Made by a program: the position numbers and the translations under genes. Below, piece by piece: positions 23,792-58,067 of a stretch of DNA of 64,000 nt. The notes under the pieces were generated by a model. It did not search any database, had not been told where the DNA came from, and was given only the letters and a program-made list of their open reading frames with translations. Numbering within the stretch: the stretch's first letter is position 1; every line of letters starts with the position of its first letter. This DNA is from Ignavibacteriota bacterium (GTDB taxonomy: Bacteria; Bacteroidota; Ignavibacteria; Palsa-1295), in contig CAWBEI010000002.1 of the NCBI GenBank assembly GCA_963787835.1, positions 476,369-540,368 on the forward strand, written 5' to 3'.

Positions 23792-24034
23792 TGAATGGAA
23801 AAATAAGTGACTACAAATCGTTTTGCCCCAAAGGACGACCAGTTAAATAAAATAATACCTCAAGAATCGACCGGTTTTCCCCCAAGTATTTAACTCGACA
23901 CGCCAGAACCACCGAAAGTTACATCCCGTTCTCAATTTTTTTGAAAATTTCTTAGAGAATCCTAAAACTAAGGCTTTGTCATATCTCCTTTGGCAACCCA
24001 CAATTTTATATTGTATTTACTGCGTTTAAATTGG

Positions 24035-24130: not shown

Positions 24131-27100
24131 TTACTGTTTTTCGATGGTGAGCTTGCTCGAGAGCGTGGCGCTGCGGCCGTCGGCTCCGGTGGCGGTCATC
24201 TCATAGAGATAGCTGCCGCTCGGTAGCGAGGTCAGGTCGAGCTTCACGTTCTGGGTGCCCGCCTCGAACGACTGGTTCGTCACCTCGCTGTTGACCACCT
24301 TGCCCGTCACGTCCATCACCCGCAGCGTTACCTGCGAGGCTTCCGGAAGCGTGAACGATACCTCCGTCACACCGGCCGAGGGATTCGGATAGCTCTGGCC
24401 CAGTGTAAAGCCAAGCTGGCTTGCATCCGGACCCAGTTCCACCGTATTCGAGTACGTCTCCGCACCCGTCTCATCGACCGCCGCAATGCGGTACGTGTAC
24501 GACTGCGAAGGATCCAGACCCGTGATCGAGGAGGCATAGTCCGTCTGATCCGCGACCGCCGTCACCGGATGCAGCACCGTCCAGCTGTTCTGGTTCTGCT
24601 GCTCCACATCGTAGCGTACCACGTTCGGCAAGCCTACCACATCCCACGTGATCGTCGCGGCATTACCGCTGACCCGCTGAATGCTCGCACTCACATTGTC
24701 GATCGGTAGGATCGTACCATTGTGACTGCGGAAGAAGGCAAAGGCTGCTGCAAGCGTTCGTGTCGTACCGCTCGTCAATGCATCCTGTGCCGCCGTGCTC
24801 GGAGACGTCTGGTGCGGGTTCGCCCAGTCAAAGGCATAGAACACCGTGTTCACCAGGGGATCGTAATACGATACACCCGCTCCATTGTTCGGATTGCTGT
24901 ACGAGTAGTTCGAGTACGTGTACGCATACCCGTTGACCTTCGGACCCACCGCAGGCGTCGTCAGGGATGGCATGATCACGTTCGGTGTCAGGCTCGAGGT
25001 CAGATCCGTCGAGCATTCCTCGCAGTCACTCCCGTTCGGATTGACCGGGATCGAAAGGCTGTCCGCAAACGTCCAGTACGCCGGCTGCTGGCCCACGATC
25101 CGGCCAATATACGAGGAACTCGTCGGGTAGTTCGCCACATACTGTGTGTGCATCGTCGATTGCATCCATTGCGTATCCGTCACCGGATTGTTCGACTGCA
25201 CATACCCATTGTAGTAGGCAATGTGCTGGCCCGCGATCACAAGGCTCTTCTTCGCATAGCTCTGCCCTGCGCCCAGATACCGCGTGATCTCATCCGTCTC
25301 CTGCAGCGTCGGACCGCCCTGACCCGTCGACTGACCGGCAACCGGGGCAACGCCCGGATCGCCGCTCGACCACACGATCGTCCACCACGGCGTGTAATCG
25401 ATGATCGTCGTGTTCGGAAGGCCCTTCGGAGCGTTACGGTCGATCGTGTCGAACGGTACCCCTAATCGGTTCAACGCCGCGATCACCGAATCACGGTTCT
25501 GACGGCCATCCGAGGCCGCACCATTATAGGAAAGCAATACCGCATTCTGCTTCAACAGGATCGTAAACGTCTTCGTCTGCGAGTTGTTCGCGTCGTTCTG
25601 GTCGTTCGGGACGCTCACCGTTACCCGGAACACCCCCGTGCTGTTCGACGCCGTCAACGCCGGACCCTGGAACGCGACGCTCTTCGACTCGCCCACCTGC
25701 CACGTCAACGGGGCAGACGTGCCCGTATACACCGTCGTCCATACACCATTGACCGAACGCTGCACCGTCGCCGTGACCTTCTGGCTATAGACGCCTACGC
25801 TCGATAGGTTCTTCACCACGCCCGTGATCCATAACGGACTCTCCGTCGTCACTAAGGACGTGTCGCTCGTCTGCGAGAACCCGCCCGGCTGTGAGATCTC
25901 TAAGACCGCAAGATCGTTCGTGAACTGGAACCCGTCCCATTCATCCGCCCCGATGTCCGGGCTCGGATTGTTCTGCGAACGAACGTCTCCGTCGAAATCA
26001 TGAGCCTCCGACGACGTACCAAGCCACGCGCCGTTGTTCGAGGCCGGACTTTCGATGTACGTCAAGGCCGGTGGCATGTGCAACGAATCCACTCCCATCG
26101 CTGGCGTACCGAACAACGGATCGCCCGATAACGAGTGGCTGTCCTGACCCACATACGTACGCCAGTCGTTCAAACGGCGGAAGTACAGGCTCTGGAATAC
26201 CGTCCCATACCGTGCGTCGTACTCCGTCACCGAGTCGAAGACGTTCGTGCCACGCAAATCGAATACGTTATAGTCCGAACTGATCGAACTTGCATACGGA
26301 CGAGGTACCTCTAAGTTGTAGTTCGTGTACGGACCGGTGCCCGTGTTCTGGAAAATGTTGTTCCAGATGAACGCGTGCTTCGCGTATTTGATCGTGATGT
26401 TCGATGTCGCGTTGTTCGTCGAGATCGAGTTGTTGAACACCGAATCCTTGTCCGTCGAATACGGAACCGTGCCCGACGTCGAAGAGATCGTCGTCATCAG
26501 GATCGGGAACACCTTCCCCGCGCTCGTACGAAGGTCTAAGATCATGTTGTTCGTCAATCGGTTCTGCGTTACCGCCGGTAACGTCGATTTCACATTCGTC
26601 AGACCCGTGCTCGTGTACTGCCACGACGACTGCTGCAGCGCGATCCCATGCGTGTTGCCCGCTGCCGATGTCATGATACGGATCCGGTTCGCATCGATCC
26701 AGGCACCCGTCACGTTACCCGTGTCACCCGCCCACTGAGGGTTCGAAGGCGGGCCGATGTACGTGTTCATGTTCGGCTGTACAATGCCATACACATTCCA
26801 CGTCGCTCCGCCGCCCTGCGGTACTACGTTCGCGTTCACGTTCGAGATCTCGTTGTGTGAGATCACGATCCCGGTCTCGCTGTTGAACTGGATGCCCGCG
26901 TACGATAATGGGTTCGACGACGTACCTACCGTGTTCCGCGTGATCACGTCATTGTAGTTGCGCCACGTCGTGTACGCACCCTTCACCGGATCGTACGCAT
27001 CGTGGTACCCGTGATCGTAGATCCCATACTTCGCATTGCCAAGCTCGCAATTATTAACCACGAGATTGTTCATCGCTACGGTATCGCGAATACCCGAGCC

Positions 27101-29791
27101 ATAGACATAGAAGTTGTGCTCGTTGTAGATACGGACCGCCGAGCACGAGTCGTTCGCGAACATCCCGTTCCCGTGGATCACCAGATCCTTCAGCGTGATG
27201 TTGCTCGCACCGTATTCGATACCGAAGACCGCACCCGCCTTCGTCTCGTTGCTGACGATCGTCAAGCCGCGCTTCAAGGGCTCGGCCGTCACCTTGTCCG
27301 GGGACGGAACCGTCGACGGGTTATAGCCCTCGAAGTTCATATAACCAGGGAAGTGGTCGCCCATGTAAAAACAGAATGGCTGTGAGCCGCTGAACGTGAT
27401 CGTCGGATTTTGGCCCGGATATGGGATCCACGTCACCGTCGAACTCGCCGAAAGGCCGTTGATCTGGCCAAGGTCCACCGCGCCATACGGAGAGGCCACA
27501 TCGGTGTTCCCGTTCTCCGTGTAGGACGCATCCGTCAGGATCATCCGTACGTTCGCTCCGATACCGCGGAACCGCATCGTGTCCACCGCCTGATGGATCG
27601 TCTGGAACTGGCGCCCTACGCCCACATAGTAATCGCCCTTCAAACGGTCAATGATCGAAAACTGCGTGCACGACGTGTCGTTCGTCTGGTTCTCGTCGCT
27701 GCCCGCGCTGCTGCTGAAGTCTGCGATCGCGCACAGCGTGTAGCATCCCGGCGGGATCGTCGCGATCGTGTGGTATGCACCCGCGTTCGCTGTCGTTGGA
27801 AACTTGAACAGCACCTGACCCTGGTCGATGTTCAAGGCATCTTCTACCGTATCCGACTGGAATGCCAGCAACCCATCCGAACAACGGCGGATCTGGCAAC
27901 GGATCTTGAAGCTGAACAGGTCCGATACACCCACCGACTGGAACAGCGCCGATGGCTGCCACGTCGTCAAATACGGCTTCTCTTCACCCGGCTGAGGGTT
28001 GAACACTCCCACCGAGGCCGCATCGTAAAGTGGAAGGATCGGCGTCGGAGATTTCGTCGTGTCGTCCGCACGCAGCTGATCGTTACCCATGATCGCAATA
28101 CCGAAGACCGTATCCACGCCCAGCGTCACCGGAGTCCACGTCGGGCTTGAAGGGAACGCCGTATCGTAATACGCGCCTCTGCCCGGACCCTGACCGCTCG
28201 AGGAATAATCCGTCACCCCATCCGAGTTGCCACCCATTGGGCCGGAAGGCCAGTAAGGGATCACGACCGTGTCACGGAAGACCACTTTGCCCGTCGCGTC
28301 GTGTACCGTTGCCGTCACCGGTACATTGTATTGCGTGTCCGTTCCAAGGTTACGGAAACGGATCGAGATCGGCGTAGCAATATCCACCTGGGTTCGGGAA
28401 CCCGCCGGAGGATTGATCACCGAGACCCCCTTGATGTCGTTCGGTGGAGCGCACGTCCACTCATCCGTCGATTGGTTGTCTGCGGGATCCTGATCTGCCG
28501 TCGGCTGTAGATTGAACACCGTCATCGTGTCCTCGTAGATCCCATAGCCCGTGCTTTGGGCTTCGCCGAACTGCGCCGCCTGACCTGGCGCAAACTGCGG
28601 GAACGTGATCGTCGAATTGCTGAACGCCGCCGGGATCTGCGAGCTGTTCAGGGTGATCGTCTGATTATATACCTGGCCTACGCCATACTCCGAGATCGTG
28701 AAGTTCACCTGGCACGACGTTGAGACCTGCGAACCCGAATTTGTAAGGATCGCCGTTGGGGTGAAGTTCGTATTGATCGCCTGTGGAGTTTCGCTGGCAG
28801 GATTGGTGATCGTACCAGCCGTCAGATCGTACGGCCAAGCGATGAACACACGATAGCTCGATTGCGGGAGCAGAGGCTCCGTCGCGTTGTCTTCCGCTGC
28901 ATAGCCATAGGCAAAACTGGTGTAGCCACTATTAGAATAATTATTGCAGTATTGAACCAACGGTTGATTCGAAGGGCTGCCGCCGTTGCCGTTCCAGCCG
29001 ATCGTCAGGTAATTACCGCCTGTGGATTTGACGGCAGTGTAGCCCGAGTATGATTCGATCAGCCAGCCGCCATAGGAGTAATAATACCCCCAGCTTGAGT
29101 TCCACGTCCCGGTCATCGGACCATAATTGAACTGGAAGTTCGAGATCCCTGACTCATAGACAACCGTCTGCCAGCTTCCAAAACATTGTGATAAGCCATA
29201 ATAATAAGAGGGTACAGCATCGGCCTCTACGACAAGCTCACGATTCGGAGCCGAGCCGAGAACCGTATAGAGCACGTTATAGCCAGAGCTGGGGCCATCT
29301 GTCAAAAACCCTTCGAAGGGGGCCAGCCTGTAATTGCCGTAATAGGAGTACCCGTAGTTGTAATCCTCTTCGTTCTCATAGAGGCAGTATGGAATGTAGT
29401 CATACACGTACCCATATTCACTTAGAAAAAACCAATCGTACCCACCGTAATCGTAGTTGGCAGTGCTGGGCCAGGTGGGGCTGAACACGACCGTGCCATA
29501 GTTGTTAAACCGGAACGTGTTTGTCGTCGCGATCTGCGTGTTTAAGAACCGGAATGCAAACGGCACCTGATAGGCCGCCGACATTTGTTCGCCATCGTAC
29601 TGCGATGACAATCCGCCGCTGGTGCCTGTGACGGAATGCCAGTTCGAGCCGGAACCTAATCCCTGCGGATCAGGCGTATCGACCTTCCGGACGAAGTAGC
29701 TGGTCATCGTGTACGTTTGCGCCTGCGCAACCTCGGAGGAAATGATTCCGAGCGCGAAAAGCGCGAGAAGAAAAGCGTAGAGTTTTTTCAT
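24131..29791 (-). CDS. Giant (1,886 aa) secreted T9SS cargo protein, tandem paralog of 18173..23791. Identical over the C-terminal ~1,560 aa except one ~25-aa patch; the N-terminal ~300 aa are diverged
   Basis: The reverse-frame ORFs in the six-frame track are sequence-identical between the copies (for example 18764..19507 and 24722..25465). Same domain order as gene 1. Confidence 0.85.
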   Translation of the reverse strand: MKKLYAFLLALFALGIISSEVAQAQTYTMTSYFVRKVDTPDPQGLGSGSNWHSVTGTSGGLSSQYDGEQMSAAYQVPFAFRFLNTQIATTNTFRFNNYGTVVFSPTWPSTANYDYGGYDWFFLSEYGYVYDYIPYCLYENEEDYNYGYSYYGNYRLAPFEGFLTDGPSSGYNVLYTVLGSAPNRELVVEADAVPSYYYGLSQCFGSWQTVVYESGISNFQFNYGPMTGTWNSSWGYYYSYGGWLIESYSGYTAVKSTGGNYLTIGWNGNGGSPSNQPLVQYCNNYSNSGYTSFAYGYAAEDNATEPLLPQSSYRVFIAWPYDLTAGTITNPASETPQAINTNFTPTAILTNSGSQVSTSCQVNFTISEYGVGQVYNQTITLNSSQIPAAFSNSTITFPQFAPGQAAQFGEAQSTGYGIYEDTMTVFNLQPTADQDPADNQSTDEWTCAPPNDIKGVSVINPPAGSRTQVDIATPISIRFRNLGTDTQYNVPVTATVHDATGKVVFRDTVVIPYWPSGPMGGNSDGVTDYSSSGQGPGRGAYYDTAFPSSPTWTPVTLGVDTVFGIAIMGNDQLRADDTTKSPTPILPLYDAASVGVFNPQPGEEKPYLTTWQPSALFQSVGVSDLFSFKIRCQIRRCSDGLLAFQSDTVEDALNIDQGQVLFKFPTTANAGAYHTIATIPPGCYTLCAIADFSSSAGSDENQTNDTSCTQFSIIDRLKGDYYVGVGRQFQTIHQAVDTMRFRGIGANVRMILTDASYTENGNTDVASPYGAVDLGQINGLSASSTVTWIPYPGQNPTITFSGSQPFCFYMGDHFPGYMNFEGYNPSTVPSPDKVTAEPLKRGLTIVSNETKAGAVFGIEYGASNITLKDLVIHGNGMFANDSCSAVRIYNEHNFYVYGSGIRDTVAMNNLVVNNCELGNAKYGIYDHGYHDAYDPVKGAYTTWRNYNDVITRNTVGTSSNPLSYAGIQFNSETGIVISHNEISNVNANVVPQGGGATWNVYGIVQPNMNTYIGPPSNPQWAGDTGNVTGAWIDANRIRIMTSAAGNTHGIALQQSSWQYTSTGLTNVKSTLPAVTQNRLTNNMILDLRTSAGKVFPILMTTISSTSGTVPYSTDKDSVFNNSISTNNATSNITIKYAKHAFIWNNIFQNTGTGPYTNYNLEVPRPYASSISSDYNVFDLRGTNVFDSVTEYDARYGTVFQSLYFRRLNDWRTYVGQDSHSLSGDPLFGTPAMGVDSLHMPPALTYIESPASNNGAWLGTSSEAHDFDGDVRSQNNPSPDIGADEWDGFQFTNDLAVLEISQPGGFSQTSDTSLVTTESPLWITGVVKNLSSVGVYSQKVTATVQRSVNGVWTTVYTGTSAPLTWQVGESKSVAFQGPALTASNSTGVFRVTVSVPNDQNDANNSQTKTFTILLKQNAVLLSYNGAASDGRQNRDSVIAALNRLGVPFDTIDRNAPKGLPNTTIIDYTPWWTIVWSSGDPGVAPVAGQSTGQGGPTLQETDEITRYLGAGQSYAKKSLVIAGQHIAYYNGYVQSNNPVTDTQWMQSTMHTQYVANYPTSSSYIGRIVGQQPAYWTFADSLSIPVNPNGSDCEECSTDLTSSLTPNVIMPSLTTPAVGPKVNGYAYTYSNYSYSNPNNGAGVSYYDPLVNTVFYAFDWANPHQTSPSTAAQDALTSGTTRTLAAAFAFFRSHNGTILPIDNVSASIQRVSGNAATITWDVVGLPNVVRYDVEQQNQNSWTVLHPVTAVADQTDYASSITGLDPSQSYTYRIAAVDETGAETYSNTVELGPDASQLGFTLGQSYPNPSAGVTEVSFTLPEASQVTLRVMDVTGKVVNSEVTNQSFEAGTQNVKLDLTSLPSGSYLYEMTATGADGRSATLSSKLTIEKQ

Positions 29792-29998
29792 AGACTTCTA
29801 ATGAATGGAAAATAAGTGACTACAATTCTGTTGCCCGAAGGATGGCCGGTTATTCAAAACAATACCAAAAGAACCGGAGGGTTTCCCCCAGGTATTTACT
29901 CGACACGCCAAAACCACCGAAAGTTACATCCAGTTCACGATTTTTTATGTATTCTTAAGGAGTGCCTGGGATAAGCAGGGAAATTCTTTCTAAAGATC

Positions 29999-32900
29999 CT
30001 ACCGGTCAATAATAAAAGGAGTGGCAACCCGCCATCCAAGCGAGCTCACCTCAAGCATATACCGGCCAGAACTCAAAGCGTCCATCGGTATATTAATGGT
30101 ATAAGTGCCACGGGTAAAGCTCTGAGCCAGAATGTTTGTGATCAATTTCCCCGTCATATCATAGAGTCCGGCTTCAACGAACCCGTCGTTGCCAAGTTGA
30201 AGACCGAAACTGGCGGACTCCGAAGCCGGATCTGGCGTGACTGGTCCTATCGCGTAGTTGCCACCAGGCACGAATTGCCCATTCAATCCAGTGCAATCCG
30301 TCACCACAACGCTTCCACGGGTTACCTCAATATTTACTGAAGTATCGGTCGTAAGTTTGAGCCCGATCGCAGAGGATGCTCGCGGGCCGAGCAGCGTCAG
30401 CCACGAAATGGCTTCTATAAAACCTGGGTTGCTGAAATCGATCGTTTCAGAAAAAGCAACGGAATCCTGCAAAACGGAATGCGCAGGGCTTGTAAACCCA
30501 CTGATAAAAGCAACAACGGATGGATCGTAGGTAACAGCGACACTTGCCGGATATTGGCCTTTCAGCGATGATGAATCAAGACGGATCGTTGTGACAACAG
30601 TATCGCCTGCACGCGCCGCCGCATTAGAAATAGTGAAATGTGCCCAGAGACTTCCCTCTTTGAACCCTGTTCCACGAAGTGCCAATTTGAATGGCTGACC
30701 GATATTCGGATAGAGCGTCGCTGTATCGATCTCTGTGCCGGAGTCCGATGGACAAAAACGAAACTTCACTTCTGCCGATCCGAAAGATGGAACCAGAATC
30801 GGCATTGAAGAAGCAGGTTGAAACGCTGAACTCTTCCAGGCAATGGAGTCGATCGATACAGAGGGCCCACACGGGTTCCCGATGAGCGAGGAATCTTCGC
30901 CGCAATCCGGCACGAGAACGGAATCGAAGTCAATACTTTCTGCGGCCAGACCGCTATCAATTCCTTTTCCGGATAGAATAATATCAATAGTAGAATCGCA
31001 GCCGGCATCACCCAAGATAAGTTGGACAGTGTCCAACATTTCGACGGTATCCGACGGCTCCGATGGGGTAAACGAAAATCGTAATGAGGAAATCTGGCCA
31101 GGAAGCATCCGGCTCACAGTATCCAGGATGGCGAACCGTCCTCCTGAATTGAGATTAGAAATCGAAACGGCAAGCGTGTCAAGCCCGAGATTGACCAAGC
31201 TATCGCCGGCCATCACACTATCGCTGATGCAGACAAAATGAAATGGAACGACCGAATCGAAATGAACCTGTGCGCCCACCACTCGATACGAAAGGATCGT
31301 AGAAAGAATAGTATCGGAAAGCTGATAGAGGATCGTATCGGTAAATCGCCCAGTGGAATCGGGAACCCATGAAATTTGCACAGGATAACGCTCGTTCGGC
31401 TGGAGTATCACATCGATGCTATCGTGTTGGGGAGGCTCTTTACGTTGCAATGTTTGGAGCGTGATGGTGTCATTCCCTAAGTTTGAGATAGTATCGGTAA
31501 AGGTGATGGTGTGTCCTAAGCAATTCGGCCCAAGATCATGTGCTCCAAGCGACGATGCAAGACGACTCACTCCTACACCTGCTAATTCGATCGAATCCTG
31601 ACGGTCATCGAGCGCTTGCGTTTGTCGAACATCGCCCGAATCCGTTGGGCAAAATGTAAGGATCAGCATTCTTTTCTGCGAAGGTGCAATTGCGGTATCA
31701 GGCGGATCGAGCCTCATAGAAAAAGGTGGAGTGTTCCACGAACTACGATCAAGGTAAAGCGTATCCGCTCCGGCGGAAAGAAGAGACACGGTGTCACTCT
31801 TGCACTGCCCGATCGGTACATTCCCAAAGTTGACATTCGATGGGGAGATCACGAGGGAATCCTGCCTTACAAGTCCTGTTCCAAAGAGGGTCATAACTTT
31901 GGTTGAATCGGTTGGATCGTTAGAAAGGAATGTGATAGCGGCCACATCAGAAGCTGCAGAATCCGGGCAGAATTCTACCTGAAGTGTATCCGACTGGGAT
32001 GGAGGGATCCGAAGCGCGGTATCGGGAACCAGTGAAAACCCGGAAGGGCCGGAGATGGAACCTTTGCCAATCGAGAGCGGTGCTTCCCCTTCATTCCGGA
32101 TGACCAGCGCAAGTGTTTTGCAGCGGCCAACGCGCACGGTTCCAAAATCCAGTGTATCCTGAACAACAAGGAATGGCGATGCCGAATGGGAAATGATCGC
32201 CATGCTGACATCAGACACCAGCCAGCCCGGTTCATAGGTGAAGTGCATTGGATCGGATGATGGCTGGTTTACTTCAACAAACGCGACCACATAGAGCAAG
32301 GAGTCATGTAAAAGTGGTAACCATTTTGCCCAATTCCCGGCCGGAGCTCGAACGGTGTCAACCCACTCCCAATCCGTGTGTTGCGTTCTATAGAATATCC
32401 TAATGGTATCGAGCGTATTTGTGAGATCCTGAGCGGTTCCCGTTACAAGCACAGAACCGTTCGAATTCACAATGGTCGGCGTGGGCACGACAGCGATGCC
32501 CTCAGTCCAGACCGGCGATAGTTGTTGAGCCGGAGTCATGTTCGAAGCACCATCTATACGTACGCGCCCAAGCCCACCAAGCCCACCAGCAAACCCAGAT
32601 GAATCTATGCCCGGTTGACCTGCATTTCCACCATCGACATTAATACTTGTAGAAGAACCACGAATGCCTTTTGGACTTGCCAGATAGATCGCACCACCTG
32701 ATCCGCCGCCGCCGCCCGCAGCAATTTCTATGCCCGAAGTGCCTGAATCTCCTCGCGCGCTGAACGTTGAAGAAATTGCGACTATCGAATCGAAAGAAAC
32801 CAGTTCGATCGCACCACCACCACCACCGCCCGAACCACCTAACGTACCATCGCCAAGATCGACCGAATTTCCCGCACCGCCGCCGGAACCTCCCGCAAGC

Positions 32901-34018
32901 GGCACGAGAAATCTTCCACCATTTACTTGACCGCCATTCGCCCCGTTCCCAAATTGCTGATCAAAACCACCAATGCCCGCAGTACCAAATCCCCCACCTC
33001 CGCCGCCGTATTCAATGAACGGATTAACATCCTCTCCTCCGCCGGAACCGCCACCAAAACCGCCAGATGACGATGGCGATGAACCCAAACTTGCCACACC
33101 GCTCATTCCATAGGGCGCACCGGTACCACCACCACCACCCTGATCATCCGGATTACTTTGCCCTCCCACGACACCGGTCGCAGCGCCTCCTCCGGATGCG
33201 CCAAGCGTATCGAACCCCTCAGAAGCGGAACCGGAATTCCCAAGTGAATCGCTCGGGCAACTTCCTCCGCCAGTGAAACCTATTCCGCCGGCACCGCCCC
33301 AACCATGTCCACCCCCACCGCCACCGGGGCCCCCGTTGATACCTTCGGCATCGACGGAGACCGTCGAATTCGAAAGGCGAACCGGTCCTTTGGAAAGAAG
33401 CACAACCGGAAGGAGTCTTGGGTTGCTCGGGAACGTATCAGGGTTAATTGTTGAAAAAAAGATATGTGCGTTCGTAACGATGAGCGAATCAACCAATAAG
33501 GTATTGCTTCCCGAGAGCTGGCCAAATCCATCACCGATGGTGGTATCCTGTGTGATGGGGCCTAAGTGTTGCAGCGAATCAATATAAAAATTTACCGTGT
33601 CGGACTGCCCCAATAGCGGGCTAAATACAAAAAATGGCACTGACCCAAACGAGGCGCCGGGTACAATAAAGAGGGGGATCTGAAGCACCCTCCCATTCCA
33701 GGTAACGATGGTTGGTCCGACGATCACACGATCGGTGTCCGCAGCATTTAATAGAACAAAGCGTACCGAGGAATCGAGTGCATCATATCCAAACGGACGG
33801 AAGTCGCTCCCGCGCGCAAGAAGTTCCACAACTACATTCATTCCCGGCGCGGCACGGTCCGGACGAATCGTTACTATATGACCAACCTGAGCCTGTGCGG
33901 GAAACGCGAAAGACAGCGCGAGAATCAATAACAACAAATAACCACTAACGAATGATGGATGAAGGAATTTTTCCCCCCATTCACCATTCGCCATTCGTAA
34001 TTCGTAATTCCTTTTCAT
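29999..34018 (-). CDS. Giant (about 1,339 aa) secreted T9SS cargo protein with a Gly-rich beta-helix-like region and multiple ASH / choice-of-anchor-D-like repeats. The exact start is uncertain
   Basis: Signal peptide (…LLLLILALSFAFPAQAQ). Long GGxGG glycine-rich tract. Repeated …DFG(T/N)V.(V/I)G…L.I.N.G… modules. The type-A sorting domain …GRYMLEVSSLGWRVATPFIIDR. The first ~13 codons fall inside a heptamer-repeat element. Confidence 0.8.
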   Translation of the reverse strand: MKRNYELRMANGEWGEKFLHPSFVSGYLLLLILALSFAFPAQAQVGHIVTIRPDRAAPGMNVVVELLARGSDFRPFGYDALDSSVRFVLLNAADTDRVIVGPTIVTWNGRVLQIPLFIVPGASFGSVPFFVFSPLLGQSDTVNFYIDSLQHLGPITQDTTIGDGFGQLSGSNTLLVDSLIVTNAHIFFSTINPDTFPSNPRLLPVVLLSKGPVRLSNSTVSVDAEGINGGPGGGGGGHGWGGAGGIGFTGGGSCPSDSLGNSGSASEGFDTLGASGGGAATGVVGGQSNPDDQGGGGGTGAPYGMSGVASLGSSPSSSGGFGGGSGGGEDVNPFIEYGGGGGGFGTAGIGGFDQQFGNGANGGQVNGGRFLVPLAGGSGGGAGNSVDLGDGTLGGSGGGGGGAIELVSFDSIVAISSTFSARGDSGTSGIEIAAGGGGGSGGAIYLASPKGIRGSSTSINVDGGNAGQPGIDSSGFAGGLGGLGRVRIDGASNMTPAQQLSPVWTEGIAVVPTPTIVNSNGSVLVTGTAQDLTNTLDTIRIFYRTQHTDWEWVDTVRAPAGNWAKWLPLLHDSLLYVVAFVEVNQPSSDPMHFTYEPGWLVSDVSMAIISHSASPFLVVQDTLDFGTVRVGRCKTLALVIRNEGEAPLSIGKGSISGPSGFSLVPDTALRIPPSQSDTLQVEFCPDSAASDVAAITFLSNDPTDSTKVMTLFGTGLVRQDSLVISPSNVNFGNVPIGQCKSDTVSLLSAGADTLYLDRSSWNTPPFSMRLDPPDTAIAPSQKRMLILTFCPTDSGDVRQTQALDDRQDSIELAGVGVSRLASSLGAHDLGPNCLGHTITFTDTISNLGNDTITLQTLQRKEPPQHDSIDVILQPNERYPVQISWVPDSTGRFTDTILYQLSDTILSTILSYRVVGAQVHFDSVVPFHFVCISDSVMAGDSLVNLGLDTLAVSISNLNSGGRFAILDTVSRMLPGQISSLRFSFTPSEPSDTVEMLDTVQLILGDAGCDSTIDIILSGKGIDSGLAAESIDFDSVLVPDCGEDSSLIGNPCGPSVSIDSIAWKSSAFQPASSMPILVPSFGSAEVKFRFCPSDSGTEIDTATLYPNIGQPFKLALRGTGFKEGSLWAHFTISNAAARAGDTVVTTIRLDSSSLKGQYPASVAVTYDPSVVAFISGFTSPAHSVLQDSVAFSETIDFSNPGFIEAISWLTLLGPRASSAIGLKLTTDTSVNIEVTRGSVVVTDCTGLNGQFVPGGNYAIGPVTPDPASESASFGLQLGNDGFVEAGLYDMTGKLITNILAQSFTRGTYTINIPMDALSSGRYMLEVSSLGWRVATPFIIDR

Positions 34019-35499
34019 TGGCCTCGCTCGATGGTTATGTTAACGGTTCGAGAGAAGAAACGTCCCTCAGGAAGGTTGTTGTCGTACGGAAGATCTCGAG
34101 AACCACGCCCCTGACTATGAATCTCGATGGCTGTGGGTTCGACCCCTTCCGTACGAAGCATACCTTCGAGGCGAGATCGCACATTATCCGCCCGCGTCTC
34201 ACTTAGTTCGTCGTTATGTGCGGGATCTCCCATTTCATCCGTGTATCCTTGAATGAGGACACGCTTTACAGGCACTTTGGGTGTCATATCCGCTGCACTT
34301 CGAATCGAACGCTCGTTTCCAATGCCAAGCTGGGATTCGTCGAAGCCAAATAGAATAAGGCTAAAACGTTCGATTCGTTCCGGCCGGTCGCTCGCAACGC
34401 GGATGATACTCAGCGGGATGCTTGAATGCGCATGAGCATGATCGCCAAGCGAGTCTGACACATCATAATCAATGTCGAGTGAATCTCGAAGCTTGTTCAA
34501 CGTCTCTTCCGTCGGTGCCCATTCTTTTTCCTCGGCACGGTTCATGGAATCATTTCCAAAACTTTGAAGCACGATGCCCTGTGCACTGATCGTGGCGCTG
34601 GAACGGTCAATTGGTGATTGGGTCGTTACGGTGGGAAGCAGCTTGATTCGGTCCGGAGTAGCCAGATGCTCGATGTTCGTCACTGTAACGGGCGCCGTGA
34701 TACGAAACGCCGTCGAATCGCTTCCATCCACGCGGAATTCTACCCGGCGATCCTCTTCCCGCCCATGTTCTGTTCCCGAAGGACTCGGCTTCGCTGGTAA
34801 TAGCATCGCTTCAACTTTCAACCGCGAGGGATCTATCTTCCAAATTTTGACAAGATAATTCTTTACCGTCTCCGCCCGTTTTCTTGCGAGCGCGAGTAAT
34901 GCCGCATCGGAGCGATCTGCAATGCTATCGCGGTCGTCGGTATTATCCGTACTGCCGATGAGCGTGATACGAGTCTTCGGGAATTTTCGCATCCGGTCAC
35001 CAAGAATATTCAATGTTTCCCGGTAAAGATCCATCAGCTTAACGTCATGCCGTTCCGAGGAACCCTGAAATTCCCGCGCTGCCTCTTCCGGCGTGGCATA
35101 CGTTACATATCGCGAGGGGAAATTTACAGACCCGGCATCGAAGAAAATATAATTAAGGATCGGGTCGGCGTTACGGGTACGGATCTCCTCGACCGTCATT
35201 TGCACCACCGGCGAGGTATCGCCACTCGATGAGATAGCAATTGCCCGAATCGAAGCACGTAGCTTTGGAACTTCCTCTGCTTGCGCTTTAGACAGTAGTG
35301 GCACGACGACCGGAACTTCACTTTTTACAAAAACGGGTACCCGCTCCATCCTTGGCGTGAGATCGAACAGTAATGCGAACGTTGCATTTAATTCTATCTC
35401 TCGCCAATAACTTGCATCCCGCCCAATCGGAACAGCGATGTTCCGCCACCGGCTTGACCACCGAATGGCATTGTTACTCCAAAGCCCGGCTCGGCCCAC
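34015..35499 (-). CDS. OmpA-family protein with two OmpA/MotB-like peptidoglycan-binding domains. Start uncertain (a likely internal Met is at ~35349)
   Basis: …RITLIGSTDNTDDRDSIADRSDAALLALARKRAETVKNYL… and …RVLIQGYTDEMGDPAHNDELSETRADNVRSRL…. The stop overlaps the giant-gene start (ATGA). Confidence 0.7.
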   Translation of the reverse strand: MGRAGLWSNNAIRWSSRWRNIAVPIGRDASYWREIELNATFALLFDLTPRMERVPVFVKSEVPVVVPLLSKAQAEEVPKLRASIRAIAISSSGDTSPVVQMTVEEIRTRNADPILNYIFFDAGSVNFPSRYVTYATPEEAAREFQGSSERHDVKLMDLYRETLNILGDRMRKFPKTRITLIGSTDNTDDRDSIADRSDAALLALARKRAETVKNYLVKIWKIDPSRLKVEAMLLPAKPSPSGTEHGREEDRRVEFRVDGSDSTAFRITAPVTVTNIEHLATPDRIKLLPTVTTQSPIDRSSATISAQGIVLQSFGNDSMNRAEEKEWAPTEETLNKLRDSLDIDYDVSDSLGDHAHAHSSIPLSIIRVASDRPERIERFSLILFGFDESQLGIGNERSIRSAADMTPKVPVKRVLIQGYTDEMGDPAHNDELSETRADNVRSRLEGMLRTEGVEPTAIEIHSQGRGSRDLPYDNNLPEGRFFSRTVNITIERGQ

Positions 35500-36203
35500 A
35501 GCTTCTTCGAAAGCGGCGCATCATAGTTCATGCCAAGTGAGAGTGCGGGAACCAGTGCAAATTTTTTCGGAAAATTTCCGGAACCGGTGGTCGTATCCCG
35601 TGTTCCGTCGTTGAGTTCATTCCCAGGCTCAACCACATGGAGTGATGTCTGATACGATTGCAAGAAAAGCATCCCTACATTTGCTCCGGCAATGGCATGC
35701 CACCGTTTTGCGAACTCATAATAAAAACCGCCACCAATTCCAGCTTCACCGATCGTTGCAAGCAGTTCATGGCGGATGCTGAACGGCGTAAGCGTGTGAT
35801 TGACCGCGTCATAGCTCAGATCGCTTTCGGTCCAGTTGAATTCCGGATGGTGATACTGCAGGAACAAACTCGGCTGAAAACTCCAAGGATCATTATCACC
35901 CCAGAGTGGCATATCGGCAAGGAATCGAAATCCATAATCATTGCCGGTTCCCATCGAGTATTCATCACAACCGATCAAAGCTATTGGCGCAGGGATCGTC
36001 GCTTCATAATAATCCCCCCAACCATAATTGATCTGGATTCCTGCTCGGAGCGGCTTATGCTCGATCAGGAAAGAACTTTCGATCAGCGTATCCTTCATCA
36101 CAAGGGAATCTCGCCGGGCACTGCTTGGAGCTTGCGCCCGCACGCCGGCAGAGGCAAGGAGAAATATGCTCACATATAGATACAGGAGATTTCTTCGCCT
36201 CAT
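35394..36203 (-). CDS. Outer-membrane beta-barrel protein (porin-like; possibly PorP/SprF-like)
   Basis: Signal peptide (MRRRNLLYLYVSIFLLASAGVRAQA), alternating amphipathic beta strands, aromatic-rich. Lies upstream of the OmpA and cargo genes. Confidence 0.45.
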   Translation of the reverse strand: MRRRNLLYLYVSIFLLASAGVRAQAPSSARRDSLVMKDTLIESSFLIEHKPLRAGIQINYGWGDYYEATIPAPIALIGCDEYSMGTGNDYGFRFLADMPLWGDNDPWSFQPSLFLQYHHPEFNWTESDLSYDAVNHTLTPFSIRHELLATIGEAGIGGGFYYEFAKRWHAIAGANVGMLFLQSYQTSLHVVEPGNELNDGTRDTTTGSGNFPKKFALVPALSLGMNYDAPLSKKLWAEPGFGVTMPFGGQAGGGTSLFRLGGMQVIGER

Positions 36204-36384
36204 TCGCACTAATAGAAATTTCAGCCATGCAGGTAGCACTTCCCTTTAACGGGTCAGAACCATGATAATTTCCCGTGCCAGAAAATTAGGAAGCTCGCTC
36301 CGACCTAAGGAAAGTATTTCCTGCGATCCAAGCGAGCTTCGGGATGAGATGTACTACAACTATTTTTCTTGACCCAGTGAACGG

Positions 36385-37059
36385 TTAGTGCCCTGGACTG
36401 ATTTTCGGCGGCTCAAGACTTACTGGCCCTCCACCGGCTGCACCACTAACTGGTTCTGAATCTCTGGTTTGAACCGCATTCTGTTGGTGGTTCATTGCAT
36501 GGGCCGATCGAGAGTGAACTACAGGTTTATTCTCCGCCGACTTCATTTCATTGCTGATCGGAGCAGAAGAAACATTCGGAGCCACATTCGTCGATGGCAA
36601 TTCTTTCACAGACGGAGAAACCGGCTGGGCCATACGAGTAACTTGCTGAACCTGAGGTACGACGGGATTAACGACCGCGCGTACTCCATATCCCACAAGC
36701 GCCGCAACCGAGAGGCTGGCCACAGTAACGAGCGTACTCAGCTTCGTGGCAAATAGCGCCTTGATAACGCTGCCCGAAGATGCCGCCTGAACCGTACCCG
36801 CTTTGGTCGCGCTTAGTCCCGAACCGCTTAGACCGGCGCCGAGGCCGAGCGTCGCAAAGACTGCGCCGCGAAGGTTACGCGGAGGGTTCAGAACTGCTTC
36901 ATCGTGATGAAGAACTTTTTTCAGCACGAGTTCCGAGCGAAAGGACTTTCTGAGCGCCTCGCTGGAGGCGAGCGCGATCAGGAATTCCTGCTCATGTTCG
37001 GCAGAGAACTCGTTATCGATGTATGAACTGATTCGATCGTCGTGTGTCATAAAATTCAT
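36385..37059 (-). CDS. Putative anti-sigma factor (single-TM)
   Basis: Immediately downstream of an ECF sigma gene. N-terminal cytoplasmic domain (…YIDNEFSAEHEQEFLIALASSEALRKSF…), a Gly/Ala-rich TM, and a C-terminal extracytoplasmic tail. Confidence 0.55.
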   Translation of the reverse strand: MNFMTHDDRISSYIDNEFSAEHEQEFLIALASSEALRKSFRSELVLKKVLHHDEAVLNPPRNLRGAVFATLGLGAGLSGSGLSATKAGTVQAASSGSVIKALFATKLSTLVTVASLSVAALVGYGVRAVVNPVVPQVQQVTRMAQPVSPSVKELPSTNVAPNVSSAPISNEMKSAENKPVVHSRSAHAMNHQQNAVQTRDSEPVSGAAGGGPVSLEPPKISPGH

Positions 37060-37127
37060 TCGATTCCATTAATCCTGAAAATCAAGCCTGAACATCCGCT
37101 TGAATCGGCGTACTCCAGGTTCTGGCT

Positions 37128-37775
37128 CTACTCCGTTTTCCGGAGTTCCAGCCAGGCTGCGATCATTTTTCTCAAACGCTCGCGTGCGCGCCACGCCCTT
37201 GTTTTTGCGGTCACAGCAGGAGCTCCGATGATCTCGGATAGCTCATCGTACGAATACCCGAAGTACTCATGCAAAATGAACGCCTCTCGCTGTGCTGCCG
37301 GAAGCCTAAGTAACGCTCGTTCGAGCATATCGCGCAGGTCCGAATCTTCCAGCCCATCGCCGCGCACCGCAAGTTCCGTCTCGGGCGTATCGTCGATCGA
37401 GATGTTCGGCAGCAGCTTTCGGTCGCGGATGGCGTTCAGCGAAAGATTTCGTGCCACCGTAAATAGCAGTCCCGAAAATTTCAGGACAGTCTTTCGCTCG
37501 CCGCGGAGTCGGTACATCCGTGTCCAGACATCCTGAAAGACATCCTCCGCATCGCTCCTCGATCCGACGAAACGCACTACATATAAGTAGAGCGGACGTT
37601 CGAATGCATCGTAGAGCGCCCGGAAAGCCTCGTCGTTCCCATCCAGAAAGCTGTTAAAGGCTTCTGTGTCGGCATCGGTGGAGGGGGGCACTGTGCCAGG
37701 ATCAAATTCCGAGACGCCAGTCGATAACTCGGCTGGAAAAACATCATAAATGCTCTCGTTTCGATCTAATGGCAT
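37128..37775 (-). CDS. RNA polymerase ECF-type sigma-70 factor
   Basis: Region 2 (…FRALYDAFERPLYLYVVRFVGSRSDAEDVFQDVWTRMY…) and region 4 (…LRLPAAQREAFILHEYFGYSYDELSEI…). Confidence 0.85.
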   Translation of the reverse strand: MPLDRNESIYDVFPAELSTGVSEFDPGTVPPSTDADTEAFNSFLDGNDEAFRALYDAFERPLYLYVVRFVGSRSDAEDVFQDVWTRMYRLRGERKTVLKFSGLLFTVARNLSLNAIRDRKLLPNISIDDTPETELAVRGDGLEDSDLRDMLERALLRLPAAQREAFILHEYFGYSYDELSEIIGAPAVTAKTRAWRARERLRKMIAAWLELRKTE

Positions 37776-38459
37776 AGCTTAGGAACCCCAGAAATCCGAC
37801 TTTTGCGCCCGGCGCATCCGTTTTGCACCATACATCGCCGCCCGATCAACTGGTAATTCTATCCCCCTCCCATGAGCGACACGGCGATAGACCCAAAAGT
37901 TACAAGCAGTATCAAAAAAACGCATTTTGTCTCCAAGAAATGCTTGGCAGTGTGTTTGTTCTTTTGGAGTTCATGAACTGTCGCGTTATAGACTCGGAAA
38001 CGCCATCTGTTCTTTCGGCAAAGTGCCATCATATTTTTTTTACATATTCATTTAATGAACTTTTTTCTCGCTCGAATCAACTATTCATGAATTCAAGCGT
38101 CATTACGTTCGAAATTCCCATCCTTCTTTAATCTTTAAGATCCATCCTTTCTTAATCCTGAAAATCCTGTAAATCGTGGTCTAATTTACACTTTCCGAAA
38201 CAGGTGCCCATAATCCCACTCTCAAACATACAACATCCCAAACCCAAAAGCAAGGAAAATCTGAATATAATTGAATTTTTTCAGCGCCGTTAGGCGCGGC
38301 CCGTTTGTAGAAAATGATCGTTTTATGAAATCGATCGAGCTCCGTAAGAGCGGGCACAGGTCGCTCCTACGGAGCTTGAAATGCCTAAATGGGATAATTT
38401 CTACAAACTGGCCACGCCTACGGCGTTGTCATTGTCTGAACCTGGAATTCTGAGATAAT

Positions 38460-38519
38460 GTGTACACCGGGTTTCAACCCGGTGCGGGATTCTTCACCGG
38501 GTTGAAACCCGGTGTACAC
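38460..38519. terminator. Perfect 25-bp inverted repeat; each arm is itself palindromic. It lies downstream of the 822-aa gene
   Basis: GTGTACACCGGGTTTCAACCCGGTG-cgggattcttc-CACCGGGTTGAAACCCGGTGTACAC. Confidence 0.6.
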
Positions 38520-45163: not shown

Positions 45164-45298
45164 TTGCTTCAAAAATACGACACCGCCACGCTTATCATCC
45201 TGAGCGGAGCAAATCAGGGTCACATTAACTCATTTCATATTATCAAATCTTTTCCTTACGGATTGCTGTTTTCTCATACTTCGTTATTTTACGCTACT

Positions 45299-57897: not shown

Positions 57898-58047
57898 GCG
57901 TGTGAAGGGTTATGGATTGGGTTATGAATTCGGGATTGATGCTTTGCGGGCGCGGGAAAGAACATAGTGGGCACCTATTTCGTGTTCCATCCATCCCACG
58001 ATTTGTGCCGTCCCTCCGGGACTTTTAACTCTAAAAAAATCGCTAAC

Positions 58048-58067
58048 CCCGGACTCACGTCCGGGGC
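58048..58067. repeat. GC-rich hairpin CCCCGGACTCACGTCCGGGG. It is the exact reverse complement of 54383-54402, and together the two bracket the island
   Basis: Flanking bases also match (…catatt[t/c]g[c/t]agccccggacgtgagtccggggtt…), giving ~35-bp imperfect inverted repeats. Confidence 0.6.

What the first reader, a model, noticed from the sequence alone, without database searches (positions are those of the whole stretch)
29999..37775. ECF sigma/anti-sigma, outer-membrane beta-barrel, double-OmpA protein and giant Gly-rich ASH-repeat cargo arranged as one minus-strand module
Five co-directional genes have overlapping or abutting ends (ATGA overlap between the OmpA gene and the cargo gene). 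Together they look like a self-contained unit: a dedicated ECF sigma and anti-sigma, a ~270-aa beta-barrel, an OmpA-family protein with two peptidoglycan-binding domains, and a 1,339-aa T9SS cargo with a long poly-Gly beta-helix-like tract and repeated choice-of-anchor-D/ASH modules. The beta-barrel plus OmpA pair next to a cargo gene recalls PorP/SprF-type cargo-specific T9SS adaptors. Here, though, the cargo carries a type-A rather than a type-B sorting domain. The two giant tandem genes follow directly downstream.
Basis: partly seen in the sequence, partly recalled or inferred. Interest (0 to 1): 0.6.

Follow-up and report, generated by a model that had tools for sequence, protein, structure and literature searches.

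The report
ECF-regulated OmpA-like anchor with T9SS adhesin
This is a conserved gene cluster of Kapabacteria-like bacteria in which a dedicated sigma/anti-sigma switch sits next to a cell-wall-anchored outer-membrane protein (one gene, broken here by a 2-base insertion) and the large secreted adhesin-like protein it is always paired with; the pairing hints at an undescribed way of holding type IX-secreted proteins on the cell surface.

Summary
The ORFs are at the stated coordinates, but the module has four genes, not five. The "270-aa barrel" and the "double-OmpA protein" are one gene. The window carries a 2-nt insertion (35413-35414). In 25 of 27 orthologous loci, and in nearly all family members found, the gene is one 650-790-aa ORF.

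The order ECF sigma, anti-sigma, barrel-OmpA (BO), ~1,330-aa cargo is kept in about 24 species-level MAGs, down to ~35% identity.

The barrel is not PorP/SprF. No HMM hit was found in 42 members, and its nearest folds are small barrels (NspA, OprF, OmpW). BO is therefore an OmpA/OprF-type protein.

BO paralogs are nevertheless usually adjacent to large type-A CTD proteins that share a specific pre-CTD domain. 44 of 47 adjacent CTD ORFs have it. 20 of 24 non-adjacent ones match only the CTD. BO and partner-module distances co-vary (Mantel r 0.91).

An ECF-type promoter motif (GTAACTTT-N-CGTGTCG) precedes the sigma gene in 24 of 25 sequences checked (23 orthologous loci plus the window). In the window it also precedes both giant downstream genes (3 hits, 0 expected).

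The cargo N-terminus models confidently as an Ig-like domain plus a Gly-rich beta-helix that resembles adhesins.

All function is inferred. The conserved core is a cargo-specific outer-membrane partner pair beside an ECF switch.

The parts
37877..37903 (-). ECF-type promoter motif GTAACTTTTGGGTCTATCGCCGTGTCG, about 100 nt upstream of the sigma ATG (putative autoregulated promoter)
   Evidence: TGT[AC]AC-N15-18-GTGTC, allowing up to one substitution per half-site, lies upstream of the sigma gene in all 23 orthologous loci checked plus the window, with a variable spacer. The paralog-group locus L061 gives only a weak, atypical match and drops out under the strict pattern. The extended motif occurs 3 times in the window against 0.00 expected.
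37128..37775 (-). ECF (group 4) sigma-70 factor, 215 aa
   Evidence: Sigma70_r2 and Sigma70_r4_2. TIGR02937 80.3 bits against a cutoff of 42.9. Orthologs sit at the same position in 24 loci.
36385..37050 (-). Putative single-pass anti-sigma factor, 221 aa. Conserved N-terminal ~50 aa, one hydrophobic segment at about residues 101-125, and a variable Pro/Ser/Val-rich tail ending in a conserved PVSGxxGGGxVSxxPPKI motif.
   Evidence: No significant family hit; zf-HC2 and RseA_N reach only E ~0.08-0.09. It always follows the sigma gene.
36278..36340 (-). Strong hairpin (36290-36340) followed by a U-rich tract; terminator-like element between the anti-sigma gene and the BO gene
   Evidence: RNA fold -42.9 kcal/mol, z -4.3, 0 of 200 shuffles as stable. 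Hairpin plus T-run also follows the anti-sigma gene in distant orthologs.
36247..36273 (-). Conserved motif GGAAATTATC-N-CCCGTTA upstream of the BO gene (promoter-like, recogniser unknown)
   Evidence: Single occurrence in the window, 0.06 expected. Exact in 9 of the 11 nearest relatives L001-L011 and present with one mismatch in L004. Absent from L002, L008 and the distant orthologs.
34015..36203 (-). BO gene. It encodes one OmpA/OprF-like outer-membrane protein: signal peptide, small beta-barrel, small beta unit, OmpA_C-like 1, Ig-like sandwich, OmpA_C-like 2. In the window it is split into ORFs 35394-36203 and 34015-35499.
35413..35414 (-). 2-nt insertion ('CA' in atgCAagt) relative to relatives. 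It shifts the frame just before the last barrel strand (SYWREIELNATFALLFDL).
   Evidence: DNA alignment with L001. Strand mapping on the model. No excess of window-specific substitutions downstream: 6 against 7 of 464 sites.
29999..34018 (-). Cargo, 1,339 aa: signal peptide, Ig-like domain, Gly-rich right-handed beta-helix (~160-490), beta-sandwich, ASH / choice-of-anchor D repeats (~615-1100), cohesin-like pre-CTD domain with invariant Cys1242, type A T9SS CTD (~1262-1328)
29901..29927 (-). Second copy of the ECF-type promoter motif, between the cargo stop and the ATG of giant gene 1
   Evidence: A motif at the same position follows the cargo in L003, L005, L011, L014 and L018, and with a looser pattern in L001 and L009.
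24131..29791 (-). Giant T9SS type A cargo 1 (1,886 aa), probable ECF regulon member
   Evidence: Por_Secre_tail 43.9 bits, TIGR04183 37.9 bits. Promoter motif upstream. Homologs downstream of the cargo only in the nearer relatives L003, L005, L008, L009, L011.
23896..23922 (-). Third copy of the ECF-type promoter motif, upstream of giant gene 2
18173..23782 (-). Giant T9SS cargo 2 (1,869 aa from ATG 23782), 93% identical to giant 1 with a diverged N-terminal ~340 aa

Best explanation
The locus is a conserved surface-protein module of Kapabacteria/Ignavibacteriota-type bacteria.

Shown:
1. An ECF sigma gene and its membrane anti-sigma form the first unit. A conserved ECF-type promoter (-35 TGTAAC / -10 CGTGTC) precedes it.
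2. After a terminator-like hairpin comes a translationally coupled pair.
   - BO is one gene for an OmpA/OprF-like outer-membrane protein: a small beta-barrel plus a periplasmic part with two OmpA_C-like peptidoglycan-binding domains.
   - The cargo is a 1,339-aa protein built like an adhesin (Ig-like domain, Gly-rich beta-helix, ASH Ig repeats). It ends in a cohesin-like domain and a type A T9SS sorting domain.
3. The same ECF promoter motif precedes each of the two giant T9SS cargo genes downstream.

Inferred mechanism:
- When the anti-sigma releases the sigma (signal unknown), the sigma raises its own expression and switches on the giant surface proteins.
- The cargo is exported by Sec, then taken across the outer membrane by the T9SS through its CTD.
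- The cargo is then held at the surface by its cognate BO protein. The likely contact is the pre-CTD domain that only BO-linked cargos possess.
- BO in turn is fixed to peptidoglycan.

This is functionally like the PorP/SprF(+PorE)-type B cargo arrangement, but it uses an unrelated small barrel and a type A CTD.

In this genome BO carries a 2-nt frameshift. That is either an assembly error or a very recent inactivation.
For: Anatomy.

Single-gene status of BO:
- P0002 is a fused ORF.
- 25 of 27 orthologous loci have an intact ORF.
- The exhaustive HMMER search found 18 representatives, most of them (11 of 18) 660-730 aa.

Synteny: the order sigma, anti-sigma, BO, cargo is conserved down to ~35% BO identity, while the flanking genes differ.

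Pairing:
- 47 of the 82 fetched loci have a CTD ORF directly adjacent to BO. It can lie upstream or downstream, on the same strand, often with a 4-nt overlap.
- 44 of those 47 match the pre-CTD plus CTD module. 20 of 24 non-adjacent CTD ORFs match only the CTD.
- BO and partner-module distances correlate: Mantel r 0.91 for 40 pairs and 0.78 for paralogs only, with 0 of 2000 permutations as high.
- The partners have type A CTDs: 7 of 10 pass the TIGR04183 cutoff and none is type B.

Regulation:
- The motif is upstream of the sigma gene in 24 of 25 sequences checked (23 orthologous loci plus the window).
- It occurs exactly 3 times in the window (before sigma, giant 1 and giant 2) against 0 expected.
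- It also follows the cargo gene in L003, L005, L011, L014 and L018.

Literature precedent for cargo-specific outer-membrane partners and peptidoglycan tethering: PMC9143113 and PMC12618676.
Against: - No experiment or interaction prediction links BO to the cargo. Adjacency and co-divergence would also follow from duplication of a two-gene cassette with no physical contact.
- About 30 of the 82 BO loci have no detectable module-bearing neighbour.
- In the window and in L008 the BO gene is interrupted while the cargo is intact. This argues against strict dependence, unless the lesions are errors or very recent.
- The BO-cargo unit has its own, different upstream motif and does not show the ECF motif. 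ECF control of BO-cargo itself is therefore not shown.
- The published view is that type A CTDs are all handled by PorV (PMC12618676). A dedicated partner is not required by current models.
- The window's own CTD scores below the curated cutoffs.
Confidence: 0.5

Rival explanations
1. Trans-envelope signalling. BO, possibly together with the surface cargo, is the sensor arm of the ECF system. A surface or cell-wall cue changes BO's periplasmic domains. These act on the anti-sigma's short periplasmic tail and release the sigma, which then induces the giant adhesins. This would be analogous to FecA-FecR-FecI or to SusC-like/anti-sigma/ECF systems. It is compatible with the anchoring idea.
For: - Sigma and anti-sigma are invariably linked to this BO-cargo orthogroup, while the ECF-driven downstream genes come and go.
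- A second BO paralog group (L061, L073) also carries a sigma/anti-sigma pair.
- BO-cargo has a separate promoter-like motif, so it could be expressed without the sigma, as a sensor would be.
- The anti-sigma tail ends in a conserved motif.
Against: - BO has no TonB-box or N-terminal signalling domain.
- The anti-sigma periplasmic part is short and low-complexity, with no FecR-like domain.
- Most BO paralogs have no sigma/anti-sigma neighbours.
- There is no direct evidence of contact.
Confidence: 0.2
2. Ordinary co-location. BO is just another structural OmpA-family porin or anchor of the envelope. It happens to be carried in a duplicating two-gene cassette with large secreted proteins. The cargo is a standard type A substrate that PorV shuttles and that is attached to A-LPS or released, with no specific BO-cargo interaction.
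For: - The CTD is type A.
- Many BO genes lack a module-bearing neighbour.
- BO is interrupted in two genomes whose cargo is intact.
Against: - Adjacency survives changes of gene order (cargo upstream or downstream) and deep divergence.
- There are 4-nt start/stop overlaps.
- The pre-CTD domain is found almost only in BO-adjacent cargos. Chance co-location does not easily explain this.
Confidence: 0.25
3. A PorP/SprF-family barrel plus a PorE-like OmpA protein act as a cargo-specific T9SS adaptor pair.
Against: - No PorP_SprF HMM match in the window protein or in 42 family members.
- The barrel is about 265 aa and aligns with 8-stranded-type barrels, not 14-stranded FadL/PorV types.
- The barrel and OmpA parts are one polypeptide.
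- There are no TPR, beta-propeller or CRD domains of PorE.
- The cargo CTD is type A.
Confidence: 0.04
4. In this particular genome the module is decaying. The 2-nt insertion is real, BO is a pseudogene (a barrel lacking its last strand, and a periplasmic part with no signal peptide), and the cargo is orphaned.
For: - The frameshift is in the deposited sequence and is not in a homopolymer.
- An independent in-frame TGA interrupts BO in L008, an Illumina MAG.
- No other split genes were seen in the neighbouring window ORFs checked.
Against: - There is no excess of window-lineage amino-acid changes downstream of the shift: 6 against 7 of 464 sites.
- No second lesion is present. Removing 2 nt restores a perfect 728-aa ORF.
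- Related long-contig MAGs show many obvious frameshift artefacts, for example L011's giant gene in six or more pieces and the L002 cargo in two.
Confidence: 0.35

Closest known systems
PorP/SprF-like shuttle or anchor proteins with PorE-like OmpA_C proteins and type B CTD cargos (P. gingivalis PorE-PorP-PG1035; F. johnsoniae SprF-SprB)
   Same: An outer-membrane barrel gene sits directly next to a large T9SS cargo gene. There are multiple paralogous pairs per genome. The barrel is tied to peptidoglycan through an OmpA_C-like domain. The cargo's C-terminal region is the conserved, pair-specific part (PMC9143113, PMC12618676).
   Different: The barrel is not PorP/SprF by sequence or fold. It is small and OmpA/NspA/OprF-like rather than 14-stranded FadL-like. 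The barrel and the peptidoglycan-binding domains are one polypeptide. PorE's TPR, propeller and CRD domains are absent. The cargos carry type A, not type B, CTDs plus an extra cohesin-like pre-CTD domain.
OmpA/OprF family outer-membrane proteins (N-terminal small barrel plus C-terminal OmpA_C-like domain)
   Different: The barrel segment is longer (~265 aa, about 10-12 strand segments). There are two OmpA_C-like domains separated by an Ig-like sandwich. The barrel has no Pfam match in most members. The gene is conserved in translational coupling with a T9SS cargo and linked to an ECF pair.
ECF sigma/anti-sigma cell-surface signalling units (FecI-FecR-FecA; Bacteroidota ECF/anti-sigma/SusC-like)
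   Same: An ECF sigma, a single-pass anti-sigma and an outer-membrane protein are encoded together. There is an autoregulation-type promoter with an AAC -35 element and a CGT -10 element.
   Different: The outer-membrane protein is not a TonB-dependent transducer. The anti-sigma lacks a FecR-type periplasmic domain. The inferred regulon consists of giant T9SS surface proteins.
Beta-helical adhesins of two-partner and autotransporter secretion (EtpA, HMW1, FHA, IcsA)
   Different: The cargo has no TPS domain by sequence. The partner has no Omp85/POTRA domains. Export is signalled by a T9SS CTD.

Membership tests
PorP/SprF (PF11751 / TIGR03519) | Match to the family HMM | tested here: not met
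   No hit for the window barrel at E<=10 in Pfam or E<=0.01 in NCBIfam. None of 42 family members hits PorP_SprF at E<=1.
PorP/SprF (PF11751 / TIGR03519) | 14-stranded FadL-type outer-membrane barrel (PMC9143113) | tested here: not met
PorP/SprF (PF11751 / TIGR03519) | Genetic linkage to a type B CTD substrate | tested here: not met
   Linkage to a cargo is present, but the CTD is type A: TIGR04183 passes its cutoff in 7 of 10 partners and there are no type B hits.
PorE-like | TPR plus beta-propeller plus CRD plus OmpA_C-like domain architecture (PMC12773672) | tested here: not met
   Only the OmpA_C-like domains are shared.
OmpA family (PF00691) / OmpA-OprF architecture | OmpA_C-like peptidoglycan-binding domain(s) | tested here: met
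OmpA family (PF00691) / OmpA-OprF architecture | N-terminal small transmembrane beta-barrel on the same polypeptide | tested here: met
ECF (group 4) sigma-70 | Regions 2 and 4 only; match to the TIGR02937 superfamily model | tested here: met
   Sigma70_r2 44.1 bits, r4_2 51.8 bits. TIGR02937 80.3 bits against a cutoff of 42.9.
ECF-cognate anti-sigma factor | N-terminal anti-sigma domain, one transmembrane segment, co-transcribed downstream of the sigma | tested here: inconclusive
   zf-HC2 and RseA_N reach only E 0.08-0.09. The N-terminus is conserved, there is one hydrophobic segment, and the position downstream of sigma is invariant. Binding is not testable here.
T9SS type A CTD cargo (TIGR04183 / PF18962) | C-terminal sorting domain above the curated cutoff, plus an N-terminal signal peptide | tested here: inconclusive
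   Window: 18.5-20.1 bits, below the cutoffs of 23 and 27. Orthologs L003 (27.5) and L015 (30.7) pass, as do 7 of 10 paralog partners. A signal-peptide-like N-terminus is present.
Choice-of-anchor D / ASH | HMM match above cutoff | tested here: met
   NF012200 74.6 bits against 45; PF15780 81.3 bits against 27.
Two-partner secretion (TpsA/TpsB) | Omp85-type 16-stranded transporter with POTRA domains; TPS domain in the exoprotein | tested here: not met
   No such domains in BO or the cargo. Only fold-level beta-helix similarity was found.

The most novel reading that the evidence does not exclude
BO proteins define a third, undescribed way of anchoring T9SS substrates. A family of peptidoglycan-tethered OmpA-like barrels each captures its own neighbouring type A-CTD cargo through a cohesin-like pre-CTD domain. 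The capture may be locked by a disulfide between the single invariant Cys of the barrel and the single invariant Cys just upstream of the CTD. In one orthogroup the pair is wired to an ECF switch that controls giant adhesins.
Probability: 0.3. Interest if true: 0.75.

Novelty: new variant of a known kind. Interest (0 to 1): 0.52.

Why it matters
Current T9SS models assign type A CTD cargos to PorV and A-LPS attachment, and type B cargos to PorP/SprF-like partners. Those models were built almost entirely on Porphyromonas and Flavobacterium.

A large, conserved family of OmpA-like outer-membrane proteins that is paired gene-for-gene with type A cargos carrying a private pre-CTD domain would add something new. 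It would show that other FCB-group lineages (Kapabacteria/Ignavibacteriota) use a different, cell-wall-tethered docking partner.

The locus also gives a concrete ECF promoter and regulon to test, namely sigma autoregulation and the giant surface proteins.

Practically, it flags a frameshifted gene that automatic annotation splits into a 'hypothetical protein' and an 'OmpA family protein'.

Tried and rejected

2. 'Five genes'. Rejected; the barrel and OmpA ORFs are one gene.

3. Word-index homolog search with the 269-aa barrel found only itself. The exhaustive HMMER search was needed.

4. Exact-sequence contig look-ups for the window's two BO fragments found nothing.

5. The ECF motif in front of BO-cargo was not found. 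A different motif sits there in near relatives, and a GTAAC...GTTGT-like element with variable spacing in distant ones, which I do not count as the same promoter.

6. The generic sigma-70 and terminator scan was uninformative; counts were close to the shuffled expectation.

7. Covariation of the barrel Cys with presence of a partner. Rejected, because the Cys (often CC) is kept in BO genes without a detectable partner.

8. A profile of the cargo N-terminus against PDB sequences gave no significant hit. Only fold comparison was informative.

9. Rfam found no known RNA in the module.

10. The afdb50 fold library was unavailable.

11. I looked for other frameshifts in nearby window genes to judge assembly quality. 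None was seen, so whether the frameshift is real stays open.

12. The literature search found no paper on this arrangement or on the T9SS of Kapabacteria.
Full report
**Observation.**
- Sigma, 37128-37775. It has Sigma70_r2 and r4_2, and it passes the ECF superfamily model TIGR02937 (80.3 bits against a cutoff of 42.9).
- A 224/221-aa ORF, 36385-37059/37050.
- A 269-aa ORF with a signal peptide, 35394-36203.
- A 494-aa ORF with two OmpA stretches, 34015-35499.
- A 1,339-aa ORF, 29999-34018, with ASH / choice-of-anchor D repeats and a weak Por_Secre_tail.

The ATGA overlap between the OmpA ORF and the cargo gene is real.

The other junctions do not abut. Sigma and anti-sigma are about 70 nt apart. 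Anti-sigma and the next gene are 181 nt apart, and that gap contains a very stable hairpin followed by a U-rich tract (-42.9 kcal/mol, z -4.3).

**The 'barrel' and the 'double-OmpA protein' are one gene.**
- The 269-aa ORF clusters at 90% identity with a 691-aa JGI protein, P0002. P0002 runs straight from the barrel sequence into the OmpA sequence ('...SLFRLGGM|SYWREVEV...').
- The contig that encodes P0002 (L001) is 86% identical to the window over 8.4 kb. Aligning the junction shows that the window has two extra bases, CA, at 35413-35414.
- Deleting them restores a 728-aa ORF.
- An exhaustive HMMER search of 1.84 billion representatives with the barrel part returned only 18 proteins, most of them (11 of 18) 660-730 aa long.
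- A profile search returned 55 more, mostly 630-790 aa, apart from a few partial or longer entries.
- In 25 of 27 orthologous loci the gene is a single ORF. The one other exception, L008, has an in-frame TGA in the linker after the barrel.
- In the AF2 model the frameshift falls just before the last barrel strand.
- Downstream of the shift the window lineage has no excess of amino-acid changes: 6 against 7 of 464 sites, relative to L001 with three outgroups.

The lesion is therefore either an assembly error or very recent. I could not decide which.

**What BO is.** The AF2 model of a 78%-identical relative has pLDDT 82. It contains these parts:
- a beta-barrel at about residues 32-298
- a small beta unit
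- a first OmpA_C-like domain
- an Ig-like sandwich
- a second OmpA_C-like domain

Neither the window protein nor any of 42 family members hits PorP_SprF. Three members hit the generic OMP_b-brl_2 family.

BO is therefore an elaborated OmpA/OprF-type protein and not a PorP/SprF plus PorE pair.

**Conserved synteny.** A pattern scan of one genome per species found 522 loci that encode BO relatives. Almost all are in Kapaibacterium, Ignavibacteriota, Chlorobiota or Bacteroidota MAGs, and there are several paralogs per genome.

In L001-L018 and L022-L027 the order sigma, anti-sigma, BO, ~1,330-aa cargo is kept down to about 35% BO identity, while the flanking genes change.

Homologs of the giant gene follow the cargo only in the nearer relatives.

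**The core pair.** Most BO paralogs (L028-L082) lack the sigma/anti-sigma genes. Many are nevertheless directly flanked, upstream or downstream on the same strand and often with a 4-nt overlap, by an 800-1,840-aa ORF.
- An HMM of the window cargo's last 240 residues matches 44 of 47 BO-adjacent CTD ORFs from HMM position 60 or earlier. That region covers a cohesin-like pre-CTD domain plus the CTD.
- By contrast, 20 of 24 non-adjacent CTD ORFs in the same loci match only the CTD. Two of the four exceptions are the second half of a split adjacent cargo.
- Pairwise distances of BO and of the partner module correlate strongly: Mantel r 0.91 for 40 pairs and 0.78 for paralogs only, with 0 of 2000 permutations as high.
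- The partners' CTDs are type A. 7 of 10 pass TIGR04183, and orthologs L003 and L015 pass Pfam's cutoff. None is type B.
- The window's own CTD is below the cutoffs, but it is at the homologous position.

These results show stable, ancient linkage of a BO gene with a cargo that carries a private C-terminal module. They do not prove physical contact.

**The cargo.** The N-terminal 620 residues model with pLDDT 89 and pTM 0.89. The model shows an Ig-like domain, a solenoid that includes the whole Gly-rich tract, and a beta-sandwich.
- The glycines are nearly invariant across orthologs and paralogs.
- The N-terminal/Gly-rich module (the search used the whole 620-aa N-terminal profile) also occurs in proteins of other phyla and in a Flavobacteriales type B CTD protein.

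**Regulation.**
- The motif TGT[AC]AC-N16/17-[CT]GTGTC lies upstream of the sigma gene in all 23 orthologous loci checked plus the window. The spacer sequence diverges while the two elements stay fixed. The paralog-group locus L061 gives only a weak, atypical match.
- In the window the extended motif GTAACTTT-N12-15-CGTGTCG occurs exactly three times, against 0.00 expected:
  - before the sigma gene (37877-37903)
  - between the cargo and giant gene 1 (29901-29927)
  - before giant gene 2 (23896-23922)
- The motif also follows the cargo gene in L003, L005, L011, L014 and L018.
- It resembles ECF promoters by its AAC -35 and CGT -10 elements. That comparison rests on my own knowledge of sigma-X/W-type consensus sequences.
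- I infer that the sigma autoregulates and that it drives the downstream giant T9SS proteins.
- BO-cargo sits behind the terminator-like hairpin and has a different conserved motif, GGAAAT-N-CCGTTA at 36247-36273, found only in near relatives. Whether the ECF sigma controls BO-cargo is open.

**Anti-sigma.** It has no significant family match; zf-HC2 and RseA_N reach only E ~0.08. It has a highly conserved N-terminal ~50 residues, one hydrophobic segment at about residues 101-125, and a variable Pro/Ser-rich tail with a conserved terminal motif. It always follows the sigma gene.

**Mechanism proposed (inferred).**
1. The ECF switch controls surface-protein output.
2. The cargo is exported by Sec and then by the T9SS.
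3. The cargo is retained by its cognate BO protein through the pre-CTD domain.
4. BO is tethered to peptidoglycan by its OmpA_C-like domains.

[quoted passage not shown] The parts are not homologous, and the cargo here has a type A CTD. Type A CTDs are currently thought to be handled by PorV alone (PMC12618676).

One extra observation bears on this. BO orthologs have one invariant Cys in the barrel region, and 49 of 50 pre-CTD modules have one invariant Cys about 20 residues before the CTD. That suggests a possible disulfide. However, the BO Cys is also kept in BO genes with no detectable partner, so there is no covariation to support the idea.

**Rivals.**
- BO as the sensor arm of the ECF system.
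- Plain co-location of a structural OmpA paralog.
- Real pseudogenisation in this strain.

The PorP/SprF membership claim and a two-partner-secretion reading are rejected.

**Novelty.** Each component is of a known kind. I did not find the conserved combination described in the searchable literature. The combination is an OmpA-like barrel family paired with type A cargos that carry a private pre-CTD domain, wired in one orthogroup to an ECF regulon of giant adhesins. I rate it a new variant of a known kind, of moderate interest. It rests entirely on comparative genomics and structure prediction.

Noticed in passing
window 18173-23782 and 24131-29791 (-): The two giant T9SS genes are 93% identical overall. 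The N-terminal ~340 aa are clearly diverged and the remaining ~1,500 aa are almost identical. This suggests a recent duplication or gene conversion with a variable tip. Each copy has its own ECF-type promoter and a nearly identical ~110-nt leader.
   Followed up: partly
window cargo residue C1242 (about 30293-30295); BO barrel 'GCD' loop (about 35962-35970): There is a single invariant Cys about 20 aa before the CTD in 49 of 50 pre-CTD modules. There is also a single invariant Cys (CC in many paralogs) in the BO barrel region. A possible intermolecular disulfide is suggested, but no covariation with partner presence was found.
   Followed up: partly
L008 3124-3126: A second, independent interruption of the BO gene: an in-frame TGA in the linker right after the barrel, in an Illumina MAG (Centralia_MAG_334). 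The cargo gene there is intact.
   Followed up: partly
L002/L024 12181-16155; L011 14361-18076: In related long-contig MAGs the cargo (722 + 600 aa) and the giant gene (six or more pieces) are fragmented. These look like frameshift artefacts, which is relevant to whether the window's own frameshift is real.
   Followed up: no
window 58047-58094 (+): Rfam Acido-Lenti-1 RNA motif just above its gathering score (39 bits against 37), upstream of a Wzz-like / O-antigen-ligase-like gene pair (58487-61140).
   Followed up: no
window ~38455-38515: A 25-bp perfect inverted repeat (GTGTACACCGGGTTTCAACCCGGTG ... CACCGGGTTGAAACCCGGTGTACAC) lies immediately downstream of the BNR/ASH T9SS gene 38530-40998. 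It could be a terminator or a repeat element.
   Followed up: no
window 38530-40998 (-), 45164-48733 (+), 12206-13507 (-): More secreted proteins lie around the module: a BNR/Sortilin-ASH protein and a PNGase-F-like/LamG protein that both end in T9SS-type C-terminal sorting domains, and a Sortilin-like ORF in which no sorting domain was detected. The region is rich in surface proteins, although it also contains housekeeping genes (hrcA, dnaJ, nusG, fusA).
   Followed up: no
window 54933-55829 (-): AbiGi-like (abortive-infection antitoxin family) ORF, next to an unannotated 178-aa ORF.
   Followed up: no
L061 5905-12724; L073 3-4722: A second BO paralog group also has sigma/anti-sigma genes upstream, plus a large downstream ORF with no similarity to the window cargo's N-terminal domains. 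The ECF-BO-cargo design therefore exists in at least two versions.
   Followed up: no
P0091 and P0105-P0114, P0129-P0196: The search with the 620-aa N-terminal/Gly-rich profile also hit a Flavobacteriales type B CTD protein, 'metal-binding motif' proteins of Alpha- and Deltaproteobacteria, and a widespread ~476-aa family with no annotation. The Gly-rich fold appears to be an uncharacterised domain family.
   Followed up: no
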